Notes: generated by a model not told the origin, from the sequence alone. A stretch of DNA of 48,034 bases from a virus (IMGVR_UViG_3300029079_000001), one strand, 5' to 3'. Shown: positions 2,400 to 27,555, counted from the first letter of the stretch. Program-made: numbers and translations.

Positions 2400-2999
2400 A
2401 TGCGTAAATTATGTGCTGTTATTCTGTCCGCAGTAGTCTGGCTGGTTGCCGCTGGTACGCCAGCGAGCGCAGCAGAGCATCAGTCCACACTAAGCGCCGG
2501 GTATCTTCAGACCCATACTGATATGCCAGGCAGTGATGACCTGAAGGGCATTAACGTGAAATACCGTTATGAATTTACGGACACGCTGGGGCTGGTGACG
2601 TCATTCAGTTATGCCAATGCCAAAGATGAGCAAAAAACGCATTACAGCGATACCCGCTGGCATGAAGATTCAGTGCGTAACCGCTGGTTCAGCATGATGG
2701 CGGGGCCATCTGTACGCGTGAATGAATGGTTCAGTGCTTATGCGATGGCAGGTGTGGCTTACAGCCGTGTTTCGACGTTCTCCGGGGATTATCTCCGCGT
2801 AACTGACAACAAGGGGAAAACGCACGATGTGCTGACCGGAAGTGATGACGATCGCAACAGCAACACGTCTCTGGCGTGGGGAGCTGGCGTGCAGTTTAAC
2901 CCGACCGAATCCGTGGCCATTGATATTGCTTATGAAGGCTCCGGCAGTGGCGACTGGCGCACTGACGGTTTCATCGTGGGTGTCGGTTATAAGTTCTGA
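2400..2999 (+). CDS. lom: Outer membrane protein Lom (Ail/Lom family beta-barrel)
   Basis: 199 aa, signal peptide, C-terminal ...GFIVGVGYKF beta-barrel end; closely matches recalled lambda Lom. Confidence 0.9.
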   Translation: MRKLCAVILSAVVWLVAAGTPASAAEHQSTLSAGYLQTHTDMPGSDDLKGINVKYRYEFTDTLGLVTSFSYANAKDEQKTHYSDTRWHEDSVRNRWFSMMAGPSVRVNEWFSAYAMAGVAYSRVSTFSGDYLRVTDNKGKTHDVLTGSDDDRNSNTSLAWGAGVQFNPTESVAIDIAYEGSGSGDWRTDGFIVGVGYKF

Positions 3000-3057: not shown

Positions 3058-5439
3058 GTGGATATGGCAGCAGTAAAAATCTCAGGTGTGCTGAAAGATG
3101 GTGCGGGAAAACCAATACAGAACTGCACTATTCAACTGAAGGCAAAGCGTAACAGCACCACGGTACTGGTGAACACGGTTGCCTCTGAAAATCCTGATGA
3201 AGCCGGGCGTTACAGTATGGACGTTGAGTATGGTCAGTACAGCGTCATCCTGTGGATTGAGGGTTCTCAGCCATCACATGTTGGGACCATTACCGTCTAT
3301 GAAGGTTCCAGTCCGGGGACGCTGAATGATTTTCTCGGTGCCATGACGGAAGATGATGTCATGCCGGAGGCATTGCGCCGTTTTCAGGAAATGGTGGAAG
3401 AAGCGGCACGCAACGCCGAAGCCGCTTCTCAGAGCGCAGCGGCGGCAAAGAAATCCGAAACTGCAGCGGCATCATCGAAGAACGCGGCGAAAACCTCAGA
3501 AACGAATGCAGCTAACAGCGCACAGGCGGCAGCGACCTCACAGACTGCATCGGCAAACTCCGCGACAGCAGCTAAAAAATCAGAAACCAACGCGAAAAAT
3601 AGCGAGACAGCCGCAAAGACGAGCGAAACCAACGCAAAGTCCAGCCAGACGGCAGCGAAGACCAGCGAAACGAATGCCAAAGCCAGTGAAACTGCGGCGA
3701 AAAACAGCCAGGATGCAGCGGCCCAAAGCGAGAGTGACGCAGCTGGTTCTGCAAGTGCGGCGGCTTCTTCTGCCACTGCATCAGCCAACAGTCAAAAAGC
3801 TGCAAAAACCAGCGAAACCAACGCAAAGTCCAGCCAGACGGCAGCGAAAACCAGCGAAACGAATGCCAAAGCCAGTGAAACTGCGGCGAAAAGCAGTCAG
3901 GATGCAGCAGCCGAAAGCGAGAGTGCTGCAGCTGGCTCTGCAAGCGCGGCGGCTGCTTCTGCCACTGCATCAGCCAACAGTCAAAAAGCAGCAAAAACCA
4001 GTGAAACCAATGCAAAGACAAGCGAGACTGCAGCGGCGAACTCGGCGAAAGCATCGGCAGCAAGCCAGACAGCAGCTAAAGCAAGTGAAGACGCAGCCAG
4101 AGAGTATGCAAGTCAGGCAGCAGAGCCGTATAAATATGTCTTACAGCCGCTGCCTGATGTGTGGATACCATTTAACGATTCGCTGGATATGATTACGGGC
4201 TTTTCGCCATCATATAAAAAAATTGTTATTGGTGACGATGAAATAACGATGCCTGGCGACAAGATTGTTAAGTTTAAACGTGCATCGAAAGCAACCTATA
4301 TTAACAAATCTGGTGTGCTGACAGAGGCTGCCATTGACGAGCCACGATTTGAACGTGATGGTCTGCTTATTGAGGGGCAAAGAACAAACTACATGCTCAA
4401 TTCGGAAAGCCCTGCCAGTTGGGGGCGATCGTCAAATATGGATGTGCCCGAAACAGGGACGGATAATTTTGGTTTTACCTATGGAAAGTTTGTCTGCAAC
4501 GATTCTCTGATTGGGCAAACCTCAGCCATTAATATGGCATCAATTGCTGCAACAAAGTCAGTTGATGTCTCAGGCGATAATAAATACGTGACAACCTCAT
4601 GTCGTTTTAAAACAGAACTGCAGGTAAGGTTGCGTATCCGGTTTGATAAATATGACGGTAGCGCAACAACTTTTCTTGGTGATGCGTATATTGATACACA
4701 AACGCTTGAAATTAATATGACAGGCGGTGCTGCCTCAAGGATTACAGCGAGAGTCAGAAAGGACGAAGCTACCGGATGGATTTTTGCAGAGGCAACAATT
4801 CAGGCAATTGATGGGGAGTTAAAAATAGGTTCTCAGATACAGTATTCTCCTAAGCAGGGCGGGGCAACCGTATCTGGTGACTATATTTATCTGGCCACCC
4901 CACAAGTAGAAAATGGGCCTTGTGTATCATCTTTTATTATATCAGGAACGACGGCGGCGACCCGCGCAAGCGATATAGTTACAGTTCCCATTAAGAATAA
5001 TCTTTATAATCTTCCTTTTACGGTTCTTTGTGAGGTACATAAGAACTGGTATAAAACGCCAAATGCAGCGCCGCGTGTTTTTGATACCGGCGGTCATCAA
5101 ACCGGAGCGGCTATTATTCTTGGCTTCGGTTCTTCAGCAGATTACGACGGATTTCCTTATTGCGATATTGGAGGAGCTAACAGACGGGTAAACGAAAACG
5201 CATCGCTTGAAAAAATGGTTATGGGGATGCGTGTAAAGTCAGATCAGTCTACGTGCTCAGTAAGTAACGGGCGTATATCCAGCGAAACAAAAACCACATG
5301 GTCCTGTATTCAGAACACCGCAATTATCCGTATTGGAGGCCAGACTACAGCCGGGTTACGTCATTTATTTGGTCATGTCAGGAATTTCAGAATATGGCAC
5401 AAGGCATTGACTGATGCTCAGGTGGGGGAGTCAATCTAA
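3058..5439 (+). CDS. stf: Side tail fiber protein (lambda Stf-like N-terminus, divergent AT-rich C-terminal receptor-binding part)
   Basis: N-terminus ...AAVKISGVLKDGAGKPIQNCTIQLKAKRNSTT... resembles lambda Stf; Ala/Ser/Thr-rich KTSETNAK repeat region; likely true start ATG at 3064. Confidence 0.8.
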   Translation: MDMAAVKISGVLKDGAGKPIQNCTIQLKAKRNSTTVLVNTVASENPDEAGRYSMDVEYGQYSVILWIEGSQPSHVGTITVYEGSSPGTLNDFLGAMTEDDVMPEALRRFQEMVEEAARNAEAASQSAAAAKKSETAAASSKNAAKTSETNAANSAQAAATSQTASANSATAAKKSETNAKNSETAAKTSETNAKSSQTAAKTSETNAKASETAAKNSQDAAAQSESDAAGSASAAASSATASANSQKAAKTSETNAKSSQTAAKTSETNAKASETAAKSSQDAAAESESAAAGSASAAAASATASANSQKAAKTSETNAKTSETAAANSAKASAASQTAAKASEDAAREYASQAAEPYKYVLQPLPDVWIPFNDSLDMITGFSPSYKKIVIGDDEITMPGDKIVKFKRASKATYINKSGVLTEAAIDEPRFERDGLLIEGQRTNYMLNSESPASWGRSSNMDVPETGTDNFGFTYGKFVCNDSLIGQTSAINMASIAATKSVDVSGDNKYVTTSCRFKTELQVRLRIRFDKYDGSATTFLGDAYIDTQTLEINMTGGAASRITARVRKDEATGWIFAEATIQAIDGELKIGSQIQYSPKQGGATVSGDYIYLATPQVENGPCVSSFIISGTTAATRASDIVTVPIKNNLYNLPFTVLCEVHKNWYKTPNAAPRVFDTGGHQTGAAIILGFGSSADYDGFPYCDIGGANRRVNENASLEKMVMGMRVKSDQSTCSVSNGRISSETKTTWSCIQNTAIIRIGGQTTAGLRHLFGHVRNFRIWHKALTDAQVGESI
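3622..3999 (+). repeat. Two tandem copies of a 189-bp (63-codon) unit inside stf
   Basis: AGCGAAACCAACGCAAAGTCCAGCCAGACGGCAGCGAAG... recurs at 3622 and 3811 with few mismatches. Confidence 0.8.
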
Positions 5440-5720
5440 TGAAAGATTTAACACTCAAATTTGCCGACAGGGCCGACTTTTCGGCCTTTATGGAGAGTAT
5501 TGGCTATTATGATGACGAGTCGATGCAGGATGATATTCTTATTGACGTGATAGGTAACGTGTACAAAGAAACCGGAGAACTTACTGAAGATGGCGAGCCG
5601 GTATGTGTTAAGGAAGACGGATATTTTGTAAACGTGCGCATCATTAATGATGCAAAAAAATCGTCAATATTCGATGAATACGTGGTTGCTGTTGAGCATC
5701 AACTTCGTGGCTGGATGTGA
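5439..5720 (+). CDS. Hypothetical protein (93 aa), tail-fiber associated by position
   Basis: ATG overlaps the stf stop (ATGA coupling); acidic product with no recognised motif. Confidence 0.5.
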   Translation: MKDLTLKFADRADFSAFMESIGYYDDESMQDDILIDVIGNVYKETGELTEDGEPVCVKEDGYFVNVRIINDAKKSSIFDEYVVAVEHQLRGWM

Positions 5721-5729
5721 GGAAGAAAA

Positions 5730-6770
5730 ATGGCTACATCGACAGTAATTCCTGAAGACATCAAAACGCTAAAATCCGACGTTAGCAAATTAAAAAACGA
5801 TCAAGGAAGCTACGCAACAAAATCATATGTAGACAGCAAAGATGAAACCGTTGGTGACTGGTCTGCTTCATGGTATCAGCAGGTATTGCCAACTAGCGGA
5901 GCTATATTTGGGAGAAAACTCCGCTCAACTCACCGGACGGCAGGTGTTGAGGATGCGTATTGCGAACTATACCTCAAAAAATGGATAGACAGTCCAGGTA
6001 ACGCAATGGCGCGCCTTAACCTGAACGATAACGGGACAAACATTTGCTGGGACTTTACCAACCTTTATGGCGGTACGATGATTTTTCCCGGTGACAGCGG
6101 ATACCTCAAAATGGGTAACTGCCTTATGTCATACAGCAAGCGTGGAAGTAACGCGCTTATTAAATTTGATTACACCGACACATTACAGATCAAATATGCC
6201 AATCATGGGTCAACCATGACATTAAACACACAGGGAACCGCTTATGCTGGTGTTACTGCTCAATTGTGGGGCAACTCCAGCCGTCCTGTTGTTTATGAAG
6301 TCGGTGTTGATGGTGGCGCTTATATGTTCTATGCGCAGAAAACTACCAGCAATACCTACGAATTAACGGTTAACGGCGCGTGCAATGCAAGTGCATTTAA
6401 TCAAGGCTCTGACCGGGATCTGAAAGACAATATTCAGGTGATCGATAATGCAACCGACCGCATTCGTAAAATGAACGGCTATACATACACGCTTAAAGAA
6501 AACGGTATGCCTTACGCTGGTGTTATTGCACAAGAAACCCTGGAAGCCATCCCCGAAGCCGTAGGGTCTATGATGAAATATCCAGACGGCGGGAGTGGAT
6601 TAGATGGAGAAGAAGGTGAACGGTATTACACTGTAGATTATTCTGGTGTTACTGGCTTGCTTGTTCAGGTAGCCAGAGAGTCAGACGACAGAATAACAGC
6701 ACTGGAAGAAGAAAACGCAGAATTAAGACAAAGATTATCTGCAATTGAGGCGGCGCTTGCGTCTAAATAA
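5730..6770 (+). CDS. Tail fiber / tail spike tip protein with C-terminal intramolecular chaperone (peptidase S74-like) domain
   Basis: C-terminal ...NQGS-DRDLKDNI... matches the S-D-x-x-x-K autoproteolysis motif, followed by a coiled-coil tail (EEENAELRQRLSAIEAALASK). Confidence 0.65.
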   Translation: MATSTVIPEDIKTLKSDVSKLKNDQGSYATKSYVDSKDETVGDWSASWYQQVLPTSGAIFGRKLRSTHRTAGVEDAYCELYLKKWIDSPGNAMARLNLNDNGTNICWDFTNLYGGTMIFPGDSGYLKMGNCLMSYSKRGSNALIKFDYTDTLQIKYANHGSTMTLNTQGTAYAGVTAQLWGNSSRPVVYEVGVDGGAYMFYAQKTTSNTYELTVNGACNASAFNQGSDRDLKDNIQVIDNATDRIRKMNGYTYTLKENGMPYAGVIAQETLEAIPEAVGSMMKYPDGGSGLDGEEGERYYTVDYSGVTGLLVQVARESDDRITALEEENAELRQRLSAIEAALASK

Positions 6771-6776
6771 TATTAA

Positions 6777-6798
6777 GGGGCCGAGCGCCCCGTTTTAT
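6777..6798 (+). terminator. Intrinsic terminator after the fiber genes
   Basis: Hairpin GGGGCC-GAG-CGCCCC followed by GTTTTATT. Confidence 0.6.
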
Positions 6799-6806
6799 TG
6801 GGTAGG

Positions 6807-7106
6807 ATGAAAATGGATATAACACCTTTCCTTCATGCTCTTTGTGCTGTGGCTGCGCAGCTACTGATTGGTCTTTTTACCGGGAACTGGGCTTACGGAG
6901 CGATAGCCGGTTGTACGTTCTTCATTGCGCGTGAACACACCCAGGCAGAATATCGCTGGATTGAAATGTTCGGGCATGGCAAGCGGATTAACATGCCGTG
7001 GTGGGGCGGTTTTGATCCGCGCGTGTGGGATGTGGCAAGCCTGATGGATTTTGCTGTGCCGGTGGTGGCGTGTCTGCTGGTCTGGCTGTTGGTTTATCGT
7101 GGGTGA
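6807..7106 (+). CDS. Small integral membrane protein (about 95-100 aa, 2-3 predicted TM segments), moron-like
   Basis: Hydrophobic stretches LHALCAVAAQLLIGLF and FAVPVVACLLVWLLVY; the ORF track starts at TTG 6798, but ATG 6807 or 6813 (better RBS) is more likely. Confidence 0.5.
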   Translation: MKMDITPFLHALCAVAAQLLIGLFTGNWAYGAIAGCTFFIAREHTQAEYRWIEMFGHGKRINMPWWGGFDPRVWDVASLMDFAVPVVACLLVWLLVYRG

Positions 7107-7240
7107 AAAAAGGTGAGCTGTATATGCAACGGAGGAAGAAACCCCGTTGCTGGAAGCCTGGAAAAAGTATCGGGTGTTGTTGAATCGTGTTGATACATCA
7201 CTATCTCCAGATATCGAGTGGCCAAGTCAACCATAAATCA

Positions 7241-7270
7241 ATATCCCCTGCAATGCAGGGGATATTTCTT
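7241..7270. terminator. Hairpin between convergent genes (membrane ORF on + and sopB on -), probable bidirectional terminator
   Basis: ATATCCCCTGCA / TGCAGGGGATAT inverted repeat with T-rich flank. Confidence 0.55.
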
Positions 7271-8234
7271 AATTATCAGTAGATTGTTCCTCTAGTAACA
7301 ACTCAATTCTGCTTAGTATTTCTTTAGATATTTTTCGGCTATCAATTTTTATAGTTACAAAATTACCTTTATATCTAGCCGTGATCCCTTCCCCATATTT
7401 TTTCTCGTCTTTTGTTTTTTCCTCGTCGCCAACCAGAACAGAGTCAGATAATATTTGTATAATCCGTGAAGCTTCTAAATCCTCGCCGTTTTTTTTAATT
7501 GCCAGAAGATGATGAGCAGCATTGCTCATGGCAGCCATGTTTTTTTTGTAGACCTTAAACAAAGAATCTCCAGCACGAGCTGACAGTTCTCCTGGATGAT
7601 TGAAGATAGCTAATATATCTTTTGGTAGACCAGCTGTATTAATACAGCGAGTGATAATATTTCTGTCTATATTTTCAGCCTCGGCTAATGCTTTAACGTT
7701 ACCATCAAAGTCATTTAGCTTGCGTAAGTATCTCTTTCCTCTTTCGTATGCACTAATAGGCCTATAATCGTTACCAATTTGGGATAACCAATGCATCTGT
7801 TCATCGTCGAGATCACCTATTAAGACGCGATAGTCACATCCTGTTAATATCGCTGCTTTTCTTCTACGTGAGCCGTCAGCGACTTCAACGATTCCAGACA
7901 CTTTTCTGGCGAAAGCTGGATTTTGTTGTCCAGACGTTAGAAAAGATGGGATTAAATCGGCTAGAGAGGATTCATTTAATAAATCTTGATCGCGTTCATT
8001 ACCTAGCCATACCATTGTTGCCATTTCAACTTTATCTGCGGGAATTGTCTCTAACTTAAAGTTAACATTACGTCCGCATACTGGCAAAGTTATGCTGTTA
8101 CCGGTTAATGAACTCAGTTGACGTTTTAAATCACCAACCATAGGTGATACGGGCTGATGTTCAGGGGCATGATGATTATTACTCATAATGCGATTAATAT
8201 CTGGAGCATTTTTTAGAAGAGAGCGCTGTTTCAT
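7269..8234 (-). CDS. sopB: Partition protein SopB (ParB-type centromere-binding protein)
   Basis: 321 aa; ParB-like motif ...GSRRRKAAILTGCDYRVLIGDLDDEQ...; translationally coupled downstream of sopA. Confidence 0.8.
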   Translation of the reverse strand: MKQRSLLKNAPDINRIMSNNHHAPEHQPVSPMVGDLKRQLSSLTGNSITLPVCGRNVNFKLETIPADKVEMATMVWLGNERDQDLLNESSLADLIPSFLTSGQQNPAFARKVSGIVEVADGSRRRKAAILTGCDYRVLIGDLDDEQMHWLSQIGNDYRPISAYERGKRYLRKLNDFDGNVKALAEAENIDRNIITRCINTAGLPKDILAIFNHPGELSARAGDSLFKVYKKNMAAMSNAAHHLLAIKKNGEDLEASRIIQILSDSVLVGDEEKTKDEKKYGEGITARYKGNFVTIKIDSRKISKEILSRIELLLEEQSTDN

Positions 8235-9400
8235 TATTCGTTCTCCCAGCGAGGTTTTATTAGATCATCAAAAATTTCTCGGCAAACAGGGTCCCATATA
8301 GAAACAGCATTTCTCCATGCATTCAATGTTGAACGTTGGTTTGCTGCTTGTTCAAATACTGTTCTCATTTTTATCTGGCCTTTACCTACTTCATCGGTAA
8401 CGCGTACAACCTGACGTAATACCATTGATCCCCATGTATTTCTTATTTGTTCTTCCATCCATCGTGATTGATTCCCTGTAGTGAGACTATATTTAGTCAG
8501 AAGTAAGCGAACGGTTGGCTCAAATCCACCTAGGTCAACGCTTTCCAATAGATCGAGAAGCATTGTGAAAAACTGTAGAACAGAAGCGTAATCAAATAAT
8601 TCTGCAGGTGTAGCAACAACAATAACGTCAGCGGCACAAACAACGTTAATGGTTCCTGTACCGAGGTTCGGAGCACTATCTATAACGATAACATCGTAGT
8701 TATCCCAAACTGATTCAATAGCTGCGCGCAGCATAAGGTGTGGAGGATGAGGCAATTTACCCTGAGCATGATATTGCATGAGATCTGTTTCTATACGATG
8801 TAAAGCTAGGCAGCTAGGGATAATGTCTAGCCCAGGCCAACATGTTGGCTTTATAGCATATTCAGCGTTATCGCGTTCTCCTAAGTAAAATGGCAGTAAA
8901 GTATCCTCGGCATGGATATGTAAATCAGGAACATAACCGTGATACATAGAGGCCGTGCCTTGAGGATCGTTACCTTCAACCAAAAGAACACGATGACCTT
9001 GTAATGCTAACCATTGAGCTTGATGTACCGCAGACGATGTTTTATAAACGCCGCCTTTGTGTGACATAACGGCAAGCACAACAGGGTTTTTATCTTGTGG
9101 TCGTTGGTTTGGGTTGCCAAAAACTGCTCGCATACTGTTGATTTGATCTATGGTATAACCAGCACGACGTTCAATTCTTCCTCTCATTTCAAAGTCAGGT
9201 GCAGGTAAACGCCCGCTCTTCTCAGCATCTCTAATTGCTTGAGGAGTTACACCAATTAAATCTGCTACTTCAGTTATACCCCATCGGCGGGTGATACGCC
9301 GAGCTTCAGGACTATCATCACCGAATTGAGCGATTGCAATTGCTTGGGTCATTTCTTGACCTCTCGTAACACAATCTTGCAATAACTTTTTCAAAGACAT
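8234..9400 (-). CDS. sopA: Partition ATPase SopA (ParA/Walker-type, F SopA-like)
   Basis: 388 aa; deviant Walker A MSHKGGVYKTS; extensive similarity to recalled F-plasmid SopA (HTH ...AIAIAQFGDDSPEARRITRRW...). Confidence 0.9.
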   Translation of the reverse strand: MSLKKLLQDCVTRGQEMTQAIAIAQFGDDSPEARRITRRWGITEVADLIGVTPQAIRDAEKSGRLPAPDFEMRGRIERRAGYTIDQINSMRAVFGNPNQRPQDKNPVVLAVMSHKGGVYKTSSAVHQAQWLALQGHRVLLVEGNDPQGTASMYHGYVPDLHIHAEDTLLPFYLGERDNAEYAIKPTCWPGLDIIPSCLALHRIETDLMQYHAQGKLPHPPHLMLRAAIESVWDNYDVIVIDSAPNLGTGTINVVCAADVIVVATPAELFDYASVLQFFTMLLDLLESVDLGGFEPTVRLLLTKYSLTTGNQSRWMEEQIRNTWGSMVLRQVVRVTDEVGKGQIKMRTVFEQAANQRSTLNAWRNAVSIWDPVCREIFDDLIKPRWENE

Positions 9401-10047: not shown

Positions 10048-11949
10048 ATGAGCAAAGTAAAAATCGGTGAATTAATAAACTCACTTGTTAGCGATGTTGA
10101 GTCAATAGATAACTCTGACCGTCCTCAAGGGGAAAAAACAAAAAAAATAAAGGCTGTTGCATTAAAATTTAAAAATGCATTATTTAATGACAAGCGAAAG
10201 TTTAGGGGGAAAGGATTAGAAAAAAGAATTACAGCCAACACATTCAATGCCTATATGAGCAGGGCCAGAAAACGGTTTGATGATAAACTTCATCATAGCT
10301 TTGAAAAAAATATACATCGCCTATCTGAAAAGTATCCTTTATATAATGAGGAGCTATTGTCATGGCTTTCTCTACCTGCTGCCGATATTCGCCAGAGAAT
10401 GTCAGCTTTACAGGCAAAATTAAAATTAATTCTCCCTTTATCAGAAGATTTATCTAATATCAGAATTGGTGATAACAAAAGTCATAATAAGTTATTAAAA
10501 TTATCAAATAAATATAAAGAGTGGCAATTCGCCATATCTGATTTAACTAGCGATAACTGGAAAGATAAGCGCGATTATTTATATAAATTACTACAGCAAG
10601 GATCTGCCTTACTTGAGGAGTTGAATCAGCTAAAAGTTAACCATGAGATTCTCTATCATCTTCAACTAAGCCCTGCCGAACGCGCATCTATCCAGCAACG
10701 ATGGGCGGACGTTCTGCACAATAAGAAACGTAACGTGGTGGTCATTGATTACCCTAAATATATGCAAGCTATTTACGATATTATAAATAGCCCTGCTACA
10801 TTAAATAATCTAAACACTCGTTCAGGTATGGCTCCTTTGGCATTTGCACTTGCAGCATTGTCAGGAAGACGAATGATTGAGATTATGTATCAAGGTACAT
10901 TTACTGTTTCTGGTAAGTATACCGTTGATTTTTTAGGCCAAGCAAAAAAAAGAACTTCTGATGATATAACCAGAAAAATATATACATTATGCGAAGCAAA
11001 AACATTTGTTTATTTAATAAATGTACTTCGCTCATGCCCAGCAGCATCTGATTTTGATGATGTCGTTAAAGGTTATGGAGATAACGACACACGCTCTGAA
11101 AACGGACGGATTAATGCCATATTAGCAAAGGCTTTTAACCCGTGGGTTAAATCATTTTTCAAAGATGACCGCCGTGTTTATAAAGATAGTCGTGCTATTT
11201 ATGCCCGTATTGCGTATGAAATGTTTTTCCGCGTAGATCCTCGTTGGAAAAACGTAGATGAGGATGTTTTCTTTATGGAAATTTTAGGCCATGACGATGA
11301 AAACACTCAATTACACTATAAGCAATTCAAGCTGGCCAACTTCTCAAAGACATGGAGGCCAAATACTGGAAACGAAAATACCAGGCTGGAAGCATTGCAG
11401 CAGCTTGATGACGAAATGCCAGGATTCGCCAGAGGAGATGCCGGGGTTCGTCTGCATAACACAGTTAAGCAGCTGGTAGAGCAGGACCCCTCTATAAAAA
11501 TCACGAACAGCACTCTAAGAGCATTCAAATTTAGCCCTACAATGATTAGTCGATACCTGGAATTTGCTGCTGATGCTCTGGGGCAATTTGTTGGCGAAAA
11601 TGGACAATGGCAGCTGAAAATAGATTCTCCAGAAATCGTTATGCCTGACGAAGAAGAGCTGGAAGCAATACCTGAACAGACGGATGAATTATCAGAGGAT
11701 GACGATCTGGATGACGACGAAATTGAGATAGAGGAAGAGGAAGAGGAAGAGGAAGAGAGCGTAGAAGAACAGCAACCGCCCGCGCCTTCTTCACCTGTAT
11801 CTAAGCCGGTATTTAAGCCCGTGAGAAATATTGGTGATGGCTCATACGTTGTTGAGTTTCATTATAATGGCCAGAATTATGCTTGGTCCGGCATTGCAAA
11901 CAGCCCTATATCAGCAATGCAGTTAGCATGGCTGACATATTTCGGATAA
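10048..11949 (+). CDS. telN: Protelomerase TelN (telomere resolvase)
   Basis: 633 aa; N15 TelN-like sequence throughout with an acidic EEEEEEE C-terminal region; directly adjacent to the palindromic target. Confidence 0.9.
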   Translation: MSKVKIGELINSLVSDVESIDNSDRPQGEKTKKIKAVALKFKNALFNDKRKFRGKGLEKRITANTFNAYMSRARKRFDDKLHHSFEKNIHRLSEKYPLYNEELLSWLSLPAADIRQRMSALQAKLKLILPLSEDLSNIRIGDNKSHNKLLKLSNKYKEWQFAISDLTSDNWKDKRDYLYKLLQQGSALLEELNQLKVNHEILYHLQLSPAERASIQQRWADVLHNKKRNVVVIDYPKYMQAIYDIINSPATLNNLNTRSGMAPLAFALAALSGRRMIEIMYQGTFTVSGKYTVDFLGQAKKRTSDDITRKIYTLCEAKTFVYLINVLRSCPAASDFDDVVKGYGDNDTRSENGRINAILAKAFNPWVKSFFKDDRRVYKDSRAIYARIAYEMFFRVDPRWKNVDEDVFFMEILGHDDENTQLHYKQFKLANFSKTWRPNTGNENTRLEALQQLDDEMPGFARGDAGVRLHNTVKQLVEQDPSIKITNSTLRAFKFSPTMISRYLEFAADALGQFVGENGQWQLKIDSPEIVMPDEEELEAIPEQTDELSEDDDLDDDEIEIEEEEEEEEESVEEQQPPAPSSPVSKPVFKPVRNIGDGSYVVEFHYNGQNYAWSGIANSPISAMQLAWLTYFG

Positions 11950-26235: not shown

Positions 26236-26508
26236 ATGAAGATGGATGAACGATACAGCAGTGCATCTTATGGTAGCGCTGGTCTTGCTGCGTTCTTTGC
26301 CAGCCTGTCATTGCAGGATTGGGGCTTCATTATCGGTGTCGCGTTCAGCATTATCCTCGGTGTGCTTACATACCGGCTCAATAAACGCGAGCAGATGAAG
26401 CGCACGAAGATATTGCAGGACATATTGGATAAAACTAATACCAATAATCTTTCTGCTACAGCGATGGTTATTGGAGAGCTGGGGAAGAGAGCACCGAAGG
26501 AAATATGA
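26236..26508 (+). CDS. Class II holin (pinholin S21-like), MKM dual-start motif
   Basis: 90 aa; two TM segments ([27 protein letters not shown]); start overlaps into the endolysin gene. Confidence 0.7.
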
Positions 26509-27005
26509 TGCAGTCATCATTACGCAAAGCTGTCACAGTTGCTATTGGTGGCGGGGCTATTGCCATAGCGTCTATGCTCATCACTGGCCCAAGTGGTAAC
26601 GATGGTCTGGAAGGTGTCAGTTACATACCATACAAAGATATTGTTGGCGTATGGACTGTATGTTACGGACACACCGGAAAAGACATCATGCTAGGTAAAA
26701 CGTATACCGAAGCAGAATGCAAAGCTCTCCTGAATAAAGACCTTGCCACTGTCGCCAGACAAATTAATCCGTACATCAAAGTCGATATACCGGAAACAAC
26801 GCGCGGCGCTCTTTACTCGTTCGTTTACAACGTGGGCGCTGGCAATTTCAGAACATCGACGCTTCTTCGCAAAATAAACCAGGGCGATATCAAGGGCGCA
26901 TGTGACCAGCTACGTCGCTGGACATACGCTGGCGGTAAGCAATGGAAAGGGCTGATGACTCGCCGTGAGATTGAGCGTGAAGTCTGTTTGCGGGGGCAAC
27001 AATGA
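26505..27005 (+). CDS. SAR endolysin (phage lysozyme, T4-lysozyme-like fold)
   Basis: 166 aa; Gly/Ala-rich N-terminal signal-anchor [19 protein letters not shown]; lysozyme core ...[11 protein letters not shown]... Confidence 0.8.
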
Positions 27006-27093
27006 GCATGATTTGCTTTTTCATGGCAGCGTTGCTCGCATTCAATGGCAACGATGCGTGGCCGTGGTTTCTGGCCGTTGGAGTGTTGATGTC

Positions 27094-27555
27094 ATGAGTC
27101 GGTTAACCGCGATTATCTCCGCTCTGGTTATCTGCATCATCGTCTGCCTGTCATGGGCTGTTAATCATTACCGTGATAACGCCATCTCCTACAAAGAGCA
27201 GCGCGACAAAAACGCCAGAGAGTTGAAGCTGGCGAACGCCACCATCAAAGACATGCAGATCCGCCAGCGTGATGTAGCGGCTCTGGATGCCAAATACACG
27301 AAGGACTTAGCTGATGCTAAAAAGCAGCTTGATGATTTGCAGCGTTGTGTTCGCACTGGCAAGTGTGGGCTGCACCTCAACGCCAGATGTCCCGCGAACG
27401 GAGCGACCATCACCGGCGGCCTGGGCGATGCTACCGGCCCCCGACTTACTGACTCCGCTGAACGGGATTATTTCATCCTCAGAGAGCGAATCGTCACAGT
27501 GACGAAACAGGTTGGATATTTGCAGGAGTACATCAGGACGCAATGCCTGAATTAA
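27094..27555 (+). CDS. Rz: Spanin inner-membrane subunit Rz
   Basis: 153 aa from ATG 27094; N-terminal [17 protein letters not shown]; coiled-coil body; closely matches recalled lambda Rz. Confidence 0.85.
27314..27502 (+). CDS. Rz1: Spanin outer-membrane lipoprotein Rz1 (embedded in Rz, +1 frame)
   Basis: 62 aa; lipobox LASVGC; Pro-rich. Confidence 0.8.

What the first reader, a model, noticed from the sequence alone, without database searches (positions are those of the whole stretch)
6798..7270. Isolated small membrane-protein gene between the fiber genes and the sop operon, bracketed by terminators
A roughly 100-aa multi-TM ORF sits as its own unit between an upstream terminator and a convergent hairpin. 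This is a typical moron arrangement and a candidate superinfection-exclusion or receptor-modifying factor.
Basis: inference. Interest (0 to 1): 0.35.

Follow-up and report, generated by a model that had tools for sequence, protein, structure and literature searches.

The report
Small membrane gene beside tail fibres
This is a real and very widespread phage gene for a 97-residue membrane protein that travels with tail-fibre genes, but nobody has characterised it, and its suggested role in shielding the cell against further phage entry is still a guess.

Summary
The ORF is real. The best start is ATG 6813, giving 97 aa and three predicted membrane helices. It belongs to PHROG 1443 (function unknown) and matches nothing in Pfam, NCBIfam, PADLOC or PDB. 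Both hairpins exist. The upstream one is weak. The downstream one is strong but belongs to the N15-like plasmid backbone.

The crossover that brought a lambdoid fibre cassette into this phage-plasmid lies inside that remnant.

The gene occurs in 35% of complete E. coli genomes, is under purifying selection (dN/dS 0.11), and carries a motif that is nearly invariant from E. coli to Desulfovibrio. In 75 of the 80 closest viral loci it directly follows a short fibre gene with a Peptidase_S74 domain. It also occurs in two large Aeromonas phages next to non-tail genes and as a stand-alone chromosomal gene in Aeromonas, Leclercia and sphingomonads.

No promoter was found, and in relatives the gene is translationally coupled to late tail genes, so it meets only part of the moron definition. 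Its alleles do not track the fibre type, which argues against receptor-specific masking.

My best guess is generic exclusion at the inner membrane, or envelope modification through a conserved host target. Confidence is low. The finding is ordinary in kind and uncharacterised in mechanism.

The parts
5439..5720 (+). 93-aa ORF (PHROG 1361, function unknown). It is a conserved companion of the fibre cassette.
   Evidence: phrog_1361, E 5e-47. Homologues of about 95 aa lie directly upstream of the membrane gene in Comamonas-type prophages and in Lambda_2E9.
5730..6770 (+). 346-aa short tail fibre with a C-terminal Peptidase_S74 intramolecular-chaperone domain. It is the gene immediately upstream.
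   Evidence: PF13884, E 7e-14. The same arrangement is found in 37 of the 80 closest viral loci. A 234-aa fibre that also carries Peptidase_S74 is upstream in 38 more.
6777..6799 (+). Weak terminator-like hairpin (5 G-C pairs, 5-nt loop) plus GTTTTATT, placed between the fibre gene and the membrane gene.
   Evidence: (-11.9 kcal/mol, z -1.4). It is conserved in 'type A' loci, where one variant keeps the pair as G-U.
6813..7106 (+). Coding sequence of the 97-aa membrane protein with three predicted helices (PHROG 1443). Alternative in-frame starts are TTG 6798 and ATG 6807, and TAGGA at 6803-6807 is the likely ribosome-binding site.
7126..7236 (+). 3' remnant of a tail-fibre-assembly (tfa) gene with no start codon. 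It is the recombination joint between the lambdoid fibre cassette and the N15-like backbone.
   Evidence: Caudo_TAP positions 95-130 of 131; homology to the full tfa of pAH01-1 begins at about 7126-7128. From about 7170-7185 onward the window matches pAH01-1 rather than the chromosomal prophage version. The remnant follows the gene at +14 nt in 56 of 63 viral loci. A sub-threshold Rfam IS009 hit at 7104-7202 is the same tfa-derived sequence.
7240..7266 (.). Strong bidirectional hairpin terminator shared by the + strand unit and the convergent sopB gene. It is part of the N15-like backbone.
   Evidence: -19 kcal/mol, z about -5 on both strands. It is identical in pAH01-1 downstream of the full-length tfa and absent from the chromosomal prophage version.

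Best explanation
What it is (well supported): a genuine accessory gene for a 97-residue inner-membrane protein of the uncharacterised family PHROG 1443.

It is the last gene of a lambdoid side-fibre cassette: stf-like fibre, 93-aa protein, short Peptidase_S74 fibre, then this gene. Homologous recombination inside a leftover 3' piece of a tfa gene placed that cassette into this N15-like linear phage-plasmid. The gene is most simply read as co-transcribed with the late fibre genes through a weak terminator. It ends at the backbone's bidirectional terminator shared with sopB.

How it most likely works (inferred, low confidence): the protein inserts as a three-helix bundle. Its nearly invariant polar residues are H8, R40, E41, Q44, E46, R48, R58 and D79, together with the Trp-rich NMPWWGGFD loop. 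They cluster at one face of the membrane.

Through that face it binds or alters a component of the inner membrane that is conserved across Proteobacteria. A cell that makes the protein would then become a poor target for further phage genome entry. This would be generic exclusion at the inner membrane, in the manner of HK97 gp15 or T4 Imm, not masking of the particular receptor seen by the neighbouring fibre.

Steps shown: gene reality, family, anatomy, cassette history, distribution, and lack of co-variation with the fibre. Steps inferred: membrane location and topology, timing of expression, the target, and the exclusion phenotype.
For: Gene and family: PHROG 1443 over the full length, E 4e-58. 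There are 574 clusters and 443 clusters at 50% identity, all about 65-140 aa with no fusions. dN/dS is 0.11 and 78 of 79 copies are intact. The gene is in 1906 of 5426 complete E. coli genomes, with a median of 2 copies.

Structure: three helices, pLDDT 91, supported by hydropathy.

Invariant polar cluster: H8, R40, E41, Q44, A45, E46, R48, R58, W72, D79 and P83 are conserved in at least 93% of 266 full-length members, from Desulfovibrio to E. coli, while most transmembrane positions vary.

Link to receptor-binding modules of unrelated tail types:
- lambdoid and N15-like phages
- P2/HP1-like prophages of Aeromonas and Leclercia, and a Desulfovibrio prophage, directly after Peptidase_S74 fibres
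- a tailspike prophage
- telomere phage phiHAP-1, after tfa.

Autonomous and non-toxic function: stand-alone chromosomal copies with conserved synteny occur in five Aeromonas and five Leclercia species. In sphingomonads the gene lies behind ligA, sdhA or pnp.

Retained in a decayed prophage whose structural genes are pseudogenes.

Not matched to fibre specificity: identity between fibre types (0.970) equals identity within types, and identical alleles are shared between types.

Cassette history.
Against: - No similarity to any known exclusion or defence protein.
- Exclusion proteins are usually narrow in distribution and fast-evolving. This family's motif is conserved across phyla, which looks more like an enzyme or a regulator of a housekeeping machine.
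- No promoter was found. Relatives show coupling to late genes, so expression in the lysogen, which prophage-type exclusion needs, is unproven.
- Topology is unresolved. K+R counts put the conserved loop in the cytoplasm in 242 of 266 members. Sphingomonad members with Arg-rich C-tails, and the acidic N-terminus, point the other way.
- Structure searches found no informative neighbour.
- Tight coupling to housekeeping genes in sphingomonads is odd for a defence gene.
Confidence: 0.35

Rival explanations
1. It is a miniature membrane enzyme, or a small regulatory subunit of a host membrane enzyme. It would act on a universally conserved lipid-linked substrate such as a phospholipid, undecaprenyl-phosphate or a peptidoglycan or glycan precursor. 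The phage would carry it as a generic envelope-remodelling (conversion) function, and bacteria would keep it as a housekeeping accessory.
For: - The pattern of invariant His, Arg, Glu, Gln and Asp residues at one membrane face looks enzyme-like, while most transmembrane positions vary.
- Conservation spans alpha-, beta-, gamma- and delta-proteobacteria.
- Chromosomal copies are tightly coupled to ligA, sdhA or pnp in sphingomonads and have conserved synteny in Aeromonas and Leclercia.
- Alleles are independent of fibre type.
- From my own knowledge, DgkA (121 aa, three helices) shows that enzymes this small exist.
Against: - No fold or sequence similarity to any enzyme, DgkA included.
- The family is abundant in sphingomonads, which lack classical LPS (my own knowledge), so lipid A or LPS cannot be the common substrate.
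- No conserved partner gene was found next to it.
Confidence: 0.25
2. It is a lysis-timing protein: a holin, antiholin or holin modulator made late in infection.
For: - About 100 aa with three helices, and many relatives have a basic C-tail.
- An M-K-M double start at 6807-6815 resembles the lambda S dual-start motif (the motif itself is from my own knowledge).
- In Comamonadaceae prophages the gene sits between the tail genes and a holin-like, endolysin, Rz/Rz1 cassette.
- It is co-oriented with late genes.
Against: - The window has its own holin, endolysin and spanin at 26236-27555.
- No PHROG holin family matches.
- The M-K-M start is absent from type B and type C loci.
- A 35-residue invariant loop is unlike holins.
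- Stable chromosomal copies coupled to housekeeping genes would be lethal if this were a holin.
- In phiHAP-1 and the P2/HP1-like prophages it is not near lysis genes.
Confidence: 0.1
3. It is a receptor-specific exclusion factor matched to the adjacent fibre. This is the first reader's reading, and it would work like T5 Llp or the Cor protein of phi80 and N15.
For: Its position is directly downstream of receptor-binding protein genes in many phage types. It travels with the fibre cassette.
Against: - Identical alleles follow different fibre types, and identity between types equals identity within types.
- The motif is invariant across hosts with very different surfaces.
- It is predicted to be an integral inner-membrane protein, not an outer-membrane lipoprotein, and it has no lipobox.
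- No homology to Cor or Llp families in PHROGs.
Confidence: 0.05
4. It is a membrane-located helper for maturation of self-chaperoning (Peptidase_S74) fibres or for tail assembly.
For: It is directly downstream of Peptidase_S74 fibres in 75 of the 80 closest viral loci and in Aeromonas, Leclercia and Desulfovibrio prophages. Start and stop codons often overlap or lie very close. It occupies the slot of the lost tfa gene.
Against: - Many members have no fibre nearby: chromosomal loci, and two large Aeromonas phages where the gene lies next to terminase or other non-tail genes.
- Type C loci and the Comamonas prophages have no Peptidase_S74 fibre.
- Tail fibres fold in the cytoplasm (my own knowledge).
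Confidence: 0.07

Closest known systems
HK97 gp15 (moron-encoded inner-membrane superinfection-exclusion protein; Cumby et al. 2012, J Bacteriol 194:5012, reference seen; details from my own knowledge)
   Same: It is a small integral inner-membrane protein encoded as an extra gene within the tail-gene region of a lambdoid phage. It acts on its own, and the proposed action is generic, at the inner membrane.
   Different: No sequence relationship. gp15 has its own promoter and is expressed from the prophage, and no promoter was found here. This family is far more widely conserved and also occurs at chromosomal loci.
T5 Llp and the phi80/N15/T1 Cor protein (receptor-blocking lipoproteins encoded next to receptor-binding genes; my own knowledge)
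   Same: The gene lies next to the receptor-binding protein gene.
   Different: Those are outer-membrane lipoproteins specific for FhuA. This protein has no lipobox, has three membrane helices, and its alleles are independent of fibre type.
P2 Z/fun, a moron in the slot between tail-fibre-assembly gene G and sheath gene FI (my own knowledge)
   Same: In telomere phage phiHAP-1 the homologue (ORF19) occupies exactly the slot between tfa and the sheath gene.
   Different: No homology. The phiHAP-1 gene overlaps the tfa stop codon, which indicates coupled translation, not an independent unit.
Class I holins (lambda S) and T7 gp17.5 (a holin directly after the fibre gene; my own knowledge)
   Same: Similar size, three helices, late co-orientation, an M-K-M start in this allele, and a position after a fibre gene.
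   Different: The phage has a separate canonical holin. This protein has a long invariant loop, and it is stably carried in chromosomes.
PHROG 1443 / PHROG 34165
   Same: The protein is a full-length member (E 4e-58, profile positions 1-96 of 97).
   Different: The family has no assigned function, so membership explains nothing mechanistically.

Membership tests
PHROG 1443 (phage protein family of unknown function) | Significant full-length match to the family profile | tested here: met
   E 4.2e-58, residues 3-98 against profile positions 1-96 of 97.
Moron (independent transcription unit added to a phage genome) | Own promoter immediately upstream | tested here: not met
   One search found no site on the + strand between 6450 and 6812. 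By eye there is only TTGAGG(6745)-17 nt-TAATAT(6768), an 8 of 12 match that is not distinguishable from chance. Type B and type C relatives have gaps of only 10-12 nt after the upstream gene.
Moron (independent transcription unit added to a phage genome) | Own terminator immediately downstream | tested here: inconclusive
   A strong hairpin lies at 7240-7266. It is the backbone's tfa/sopB terminator and lies 133 nt after the stop codon, beyond a pseudogene remnant.
Moron (independent transcription unit added to a phage genome) | Absent from otherwise close relatives, and nucleotide composition differs from the neighbours | tested here: met
   N15-like plasmids without it. GC about 52% against 35-45% in the flanks.
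Known superinfection-exclusion and anti-phage defence families (Imm, Sp, SieA/B, gp15, Cor, Llp, Sim; PADLOC systems) | Sequence similarity to a family profile | tested here: not met
   PHROGs returned only unknown-function families at E up to 1. PADLOC returned none. Pfam and NCBIfam returned none.
Known superinfection-exclusion and anti-phage defence families | Expression protects the cell from phage infection | not testable with these tools
   This needs plating, adsorption and DNA-entry assays.
Holins | Match to a holin family; gene adjacent to the endolysin; the phage's only holin | tested here: not met
   No holin PHROG match. The phage has a canonical holin, endolysin and Rz cassette at 26236-27555.
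GtrA-like or O-antigen-modification membrane proteins | Pfam GtrA-like, acyltransferase or glycosyltransferase domain | tested here: not met
   No Pfam match in the query or in 41 diverse members.
Tail fibre assembly protein (Caudo_TAP), for 7126-7236 only | Complete domain with a start codon | tested here: not met
   Only profile positions 95-130 of 131 are present, the frame is closed upstream by a stop, and there is no in-frame start. It is therefore a pseudogene remnant, as RefSeq also marks it.

The most novel reading that the evidence does not exclude
The gene represents an unrecognised and very widespread family of membrane proteins of about 100 residues. The family has an enzyme-like invariant polar cluster (H...RE..QAEYRW...R.NMPWWGGFD...D...P). 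Phages of every tail type carry it next to their receptor-binding genes, and bacteria have repeatedly domesticated it. It would act on a universally conserved inner-membrane component by a mechanism not yet described, either a new kind of phage-entry block or a new miniature envelope enzyme or regulator.
Probability: 0.25. Interest if true: 0.65.

Novelty: new member of a known kind. Interest (0 to 1): 0.38.

Why it matters
About a third of complete E. coli genomes carry this gene, usually twice, always annotated 'hypothetical protein'. The family is not in Pfam or NCBIfam. It is one of the most conserved genes in otherwise hyper-variable tail-fibre cassettes.

If it blocks phage entry or remodels the envelope, it would affect phage host range, phage-therapy outcomes and prophage competition in a very large share of enterobacterial strains. 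It would also add a new small-membrane-protein mechanism.

The tfa remnant next to it is a clean, base-level example of how short conserved 'linker' sequences let fibre cassettes move between unrelated phage backbones. Here the move was from lambdoid prophages into an N15-like linear plasmid prophage.

Tried and rejected
- Pfam, NCBIfam and PADLOC scans of the protein found nothing. A Pfam scan of 41 diverse members found no recurring weak hit.
- PDB sequence-profile searches found only noise.
- Foldseek of a confident model against PDB and BFVD found no significant match. The best hits were photosystem I PsaL (E above 3) and a 42-aa phage fragment.
- A locally built Peptidase_S74 HMM was too narrow and missed the Aeromonas and Leclercia fibres. 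I replaced it with Pfam scans.
- Picking neighbours with naive ORF calls was noisy in high-GC genomes. I used clustering and family scans instead.
- Literature searches for the RefSeq accession and the RAST FIG identifier found nothing. The Tai paper and the coliphage-moron paper do not mention this gene in the passages retrieved. The HK97 gp15 paper is not held.
- The Rfam IS009 hit is rejected as evidence of an sRNA here. It is below the gathering score, involves only unpaired model columns, and coincides with the tfa-derived sequence.
- The holin idea is rejected as the main explanation (and the chromosomal copies).
- Receptor-specific masking is rejected.
- LPS or lipid A as the common target is rejected because the family is abundant in sphingomonads (that sphingomonads lack LPS is my own knowledge).

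Full report
SETTING. The window is an N15-like linear plasmid prophage.
- sopB lies at 7269-8234 (-) and sopA at 8234-9400 (-).
- A protelomerase-type gene lies at 10048-11949 (RefSeq annotation of the identical plasmid).
- Tail genes run up to 6770, and a holin, endolysin and spanin cassette lies at 26236-27555.
- The region studied is 100% identical to a 47-kb plasmid of E. coli MARGA_3.

THE OBSERVATION. An ORF runs from 6798 to 7106 on the + strand. The real start is almost certainly ATG 6813, for four reasons.
- The PHROG profile and all relatives begin at M-D-x-S/T-P.
- TAGGA lies 5 nt upstream.
- RefSeq annotates the gene as 294 nt.
- Relatives with other upstream sequences have a single ATG behind AAGGAGG.

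The 97-aa product has two strongly hydrophobic segments and one weaker one. A confident AlphaFold2 model (pLDDT 91) has helices at 4-23, 26-52 and 74-96.

The upstream hairpin (6777-6791 plus GTTTTATT) exists but is weak (z -1.4). The downstream hairpin (7240-7266) is strong (z about -5) and symmetrical, and it sits 2 nt from the sopB stop.

Positions 7126-7236 encode ...[33 protein letters not shown], the last 36 positions of a tail-fibre-assembly protein. There is no start codon and an upstream stop closes the frame. It is a pseudogene remnant.

THE GENE IS REAL AND COMMON.
- 574 homologous clusters.
- 443 clusters at 50% identity in an exhaustive HMM search, all small and with no fusions.
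- 518 hits in IMG/VR.
- 72 phage records, including phage 21, mEp460, Halomonas telomere phage phiHAP-1, a P22-like Aeromonas phage and Aeromonas phages of about 235 kb.
- 1906 of 5426 complete E. coli genomes, with a median of two copies and up to seven.
- Among 41 E. coli-type alleles dN/dS is 0.11, and 78 of 79 copies are intact.
- It is intact in a DLP12-like prophage whose head and tail genes are pseudogenes.

The protein matches only PHROG 1443 and PHROG 34165, both of unknown function. It matches nothing in Pfam, NCBIfam, PADLOC, PDB sequences, or Foldseek PDB and BFVD.

ANATOMY OF THE FAMILY. Most transmembrane positions vary, but a polar set is nearly invariant across 266 full-length members from alpha-, beta-, gamma- and delta-proteobacteria. 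The set is H8, R40, E41, Q44, A45, E46, (Y47), R48, R58, W72, D79 and P83, embedded in AREhTQAEYRWI...G.G.R.NMPWWGGFD..vW...D...P.

H8 is at the start of helix 1, R40 to R48 at the end of helix 2, and D79 at the start of helix 3. If the three helices span the membrane, these residues all lie on one membrane face together with the Trp-rich loop (inference).

Which face that is remains unresolved. Counting K+R places the loop in the cytoplasm in 242 of 266 members. However, the loop's charges are the invariant, probably functional ones. The variable charges point the other way: Arg-rich C-tails and basic helix 1-2 turns in sphingomonad members, and an acidic N-terminus.

GENOMIC COMPANY. In the 80 closest viral loci the upstream gene is one of three types.
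- Type A, 37 loci: a 346-aa short fibre with Peptidase_S74, plus the hairpin, as in the window.
- Type B, 38 loci: a 234-aa short fibre, also Peptidase_S74, with a strong SD and no hairpin.
- Type C, 5 loci: the 93-aa PHROG 1361 gene.

The same 'Peptidase_S74 fibre, then this gene' adjacency recurs elsewhere, with overlapping or very closely spaced stop and start codons. It is seen in P2/HP1-like prophages of Aeromonas media and Leclercia and in a Desulfovibrio prophage. In other phages the gene follows:
- a tailspike gene in a second Leclercia prophage
- the tfa gene in phiHAP-1, just before the sheath gene
- a J-like protein plus a 95-aa homologue of the window's 93-aa ORF in Comamonadaceae prophages, where a holin-like, endolysin, Rz/Rz1 cassette comes next.

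The family is not confined to phages.
- Five Aeromonas species share the chromosomal arrangement pirin, this gene, RIO1-type kinase and lipid-A acyltransferases.
- Five Leclercia genomes share another non-phage site.
- In sphingomonads the gene follows ligA (abutting or overlapping its stop codon in three loci), sdhA or pnp.

The protein therefore works without phage partners and is tolerated in cells.

HISTORY OF THIS LOCUS. N15-like relatives such as pAH01-1 have a different arrangement: a different fibre, a macro-domain protein, a full-length tfa, and then the same hairpin and sopB. Their homology to the window starts inside the tfa remnant at about 7126-7128.

Chromosomal lambdoid prophages share the membrane gene, the 19-nt spacer and the first part of the remnant, but diverge in its last third and lack the hairpin. 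The crossover therefore lies within the remnant, at about 7170-7185.

The pair 'membrane gene plus tfa remnant' is an old unit, present in 56 of 63 viral loci. The strong downstream terminator belongs to the plasmid backbone, not to this gene.

IS IT A MORON? Partly. It is accessory, compositionally distinct (52% GC against 35-45%), retained in decaying prophages and followed by a terminator.

Against that, no promoter was found. The best candidate by eye is TTGAGG-17-TAATAT at 6745-6773, only an 8 of 12 match. In relatives the gene is translationally coupled to late tail genes and also occurs in phages of about 235 kb next to non-tail genes. The simplest reading is read-through expression with the late fibre operon. 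Expression in the lysogen is possible but unshown.

WHAT DOES IT DO? Nothing here proves a function. The evidence sets four constraints.
1. It acts autonomously and is not toxic (chromosomal copies).
2. Its target is conserved across Proteobacteria, including sphingomonads, which lack LPS (my own knowledge).
3. It is not tuned to the neighbouring fibre. Identity between types A and B (0.970) equals identity within types, and identical alleles are shared.
4. It is favoured next to receptor-binding genes in phages of all tail types.

I therefore commit, with low confidence (about 0.35), to a generic inner-membrane exclusion role. The conserved polar face would engage a conserved inner-membrane component, so that incoming genomes cannot cross the inner membrane. 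This would be functionally like HK97 gp15 or T4 Imm, but unrelated to them.

The main rival (about 0.25) is a miniature enzyme or a regulator of a host membrane enzyme. The phylum-wide invariance of His, Arg, Glu and Asp residues and the coupling to housekeeping genes favour that reading.

The other readings are less likely.
- Holin or antiholin (about 0.1) is weakened by the phage's own lysis cassette and by the chromosomal copies.
- A fibre-assembly helper (about 0.07) is weakened by members that have no fibre nearby.

VERDICT. The 'isolated unit' is really the tail end of a transplanted fibre cassette, plus a pseudogene scar, plus a borrowed terminator. The gene is ordinary in kind (a phage accessory membrane protein) and already catalogued as a family of unknown function. 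It is unusually conserved and widespread for something that has never been studied.

Noticed in passing
window 7126-7236 (and 7104-7202): This is a tfa (Caudo_TAP) 3' remnant with no start codon. The crossover between the lambdoid fibre cassette and the N15-like backbone lies inside it. A sub-threshold Rfam IS009 hit (63.5 bits against a gathering score of 117, unpaired columns only) covers the same tfa-derived sequence.
   Followed up: yes
window 6807-6815: ATG-AAA-ATG (M-K-M) precedes the conserved M-D-I-T start and resembles the dual-start motif of lambda holin S. It is present only in loci with the hairpin-type upstream region (type A) and absent from types B and C.
   Followed up: partly
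window 5439-5720: This 93-aa ORF (PHROG 1361, unknown function, no Pfam match) has homologues of about 95 aa directly upstream of the membrane gene in Comamonas-type prophages and in Lambda_2E9. It may be a conserved partner or a fibre accessory.
   Followed up: partly
L152, L153, L154 (sphingomonad genomes), about 4980-5000: The family gene starts at or overlaps the stop codon of the NAD-dependent DNA ligase gene ligA. In L131 it follows sdhA and in L134 it follows pnp. So in alphaproteobacteria it sits directly behind housekeeping genes.
   Followed up: partly
L006, L094, L096, L099, L100 (Aeromonas chromosomes): Five species share a non-phage arrangement: pirin, the family gene, a RIO1-type kinase and two lipid-A acyltransferases. 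These copies have a longer basic C-tail.
   Followed up: partly
L004 2137-3027 (plasmid pAH01-1): An N15-like relative that lacks the membrane gene has a macro-domain protein between its tail-fibre gene and a full-length tfa. That is an unusual occupant of a fibre module.
   Followed up: no
window 2400-2999: This is a full-length Ail/Lom outer-membrane protein gene (Pfam Ail_Lom, E 2e-127) between the J-like gene and the stf-like fibre gene. It is a classical lambdoid conversion gene carried on this phage-plasmid.
   Followed up: no
L092 (contig assigned to a Collinsella MAG): This contig carries an E. coli-type copy (94% identity) with its lambdoid fibre genes. It is most likely a mis-binned Escherichia prophage contig.
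   Followed up: no
L001 4893-5916 (phage 2G7b) and L002 4397-7846 (Lambda_2E9): Cargo genes follow the membrane gene immediately in related lambdoid phages. In 2G7b these are a ybcY-like methyltransferase, tfa fragments, a hydrolase and OmpT. In Lambda_2E9 it is sitABCD. The gene therefore marks the boundary between the tail operon and the moron-rich region.
   Followed up: no
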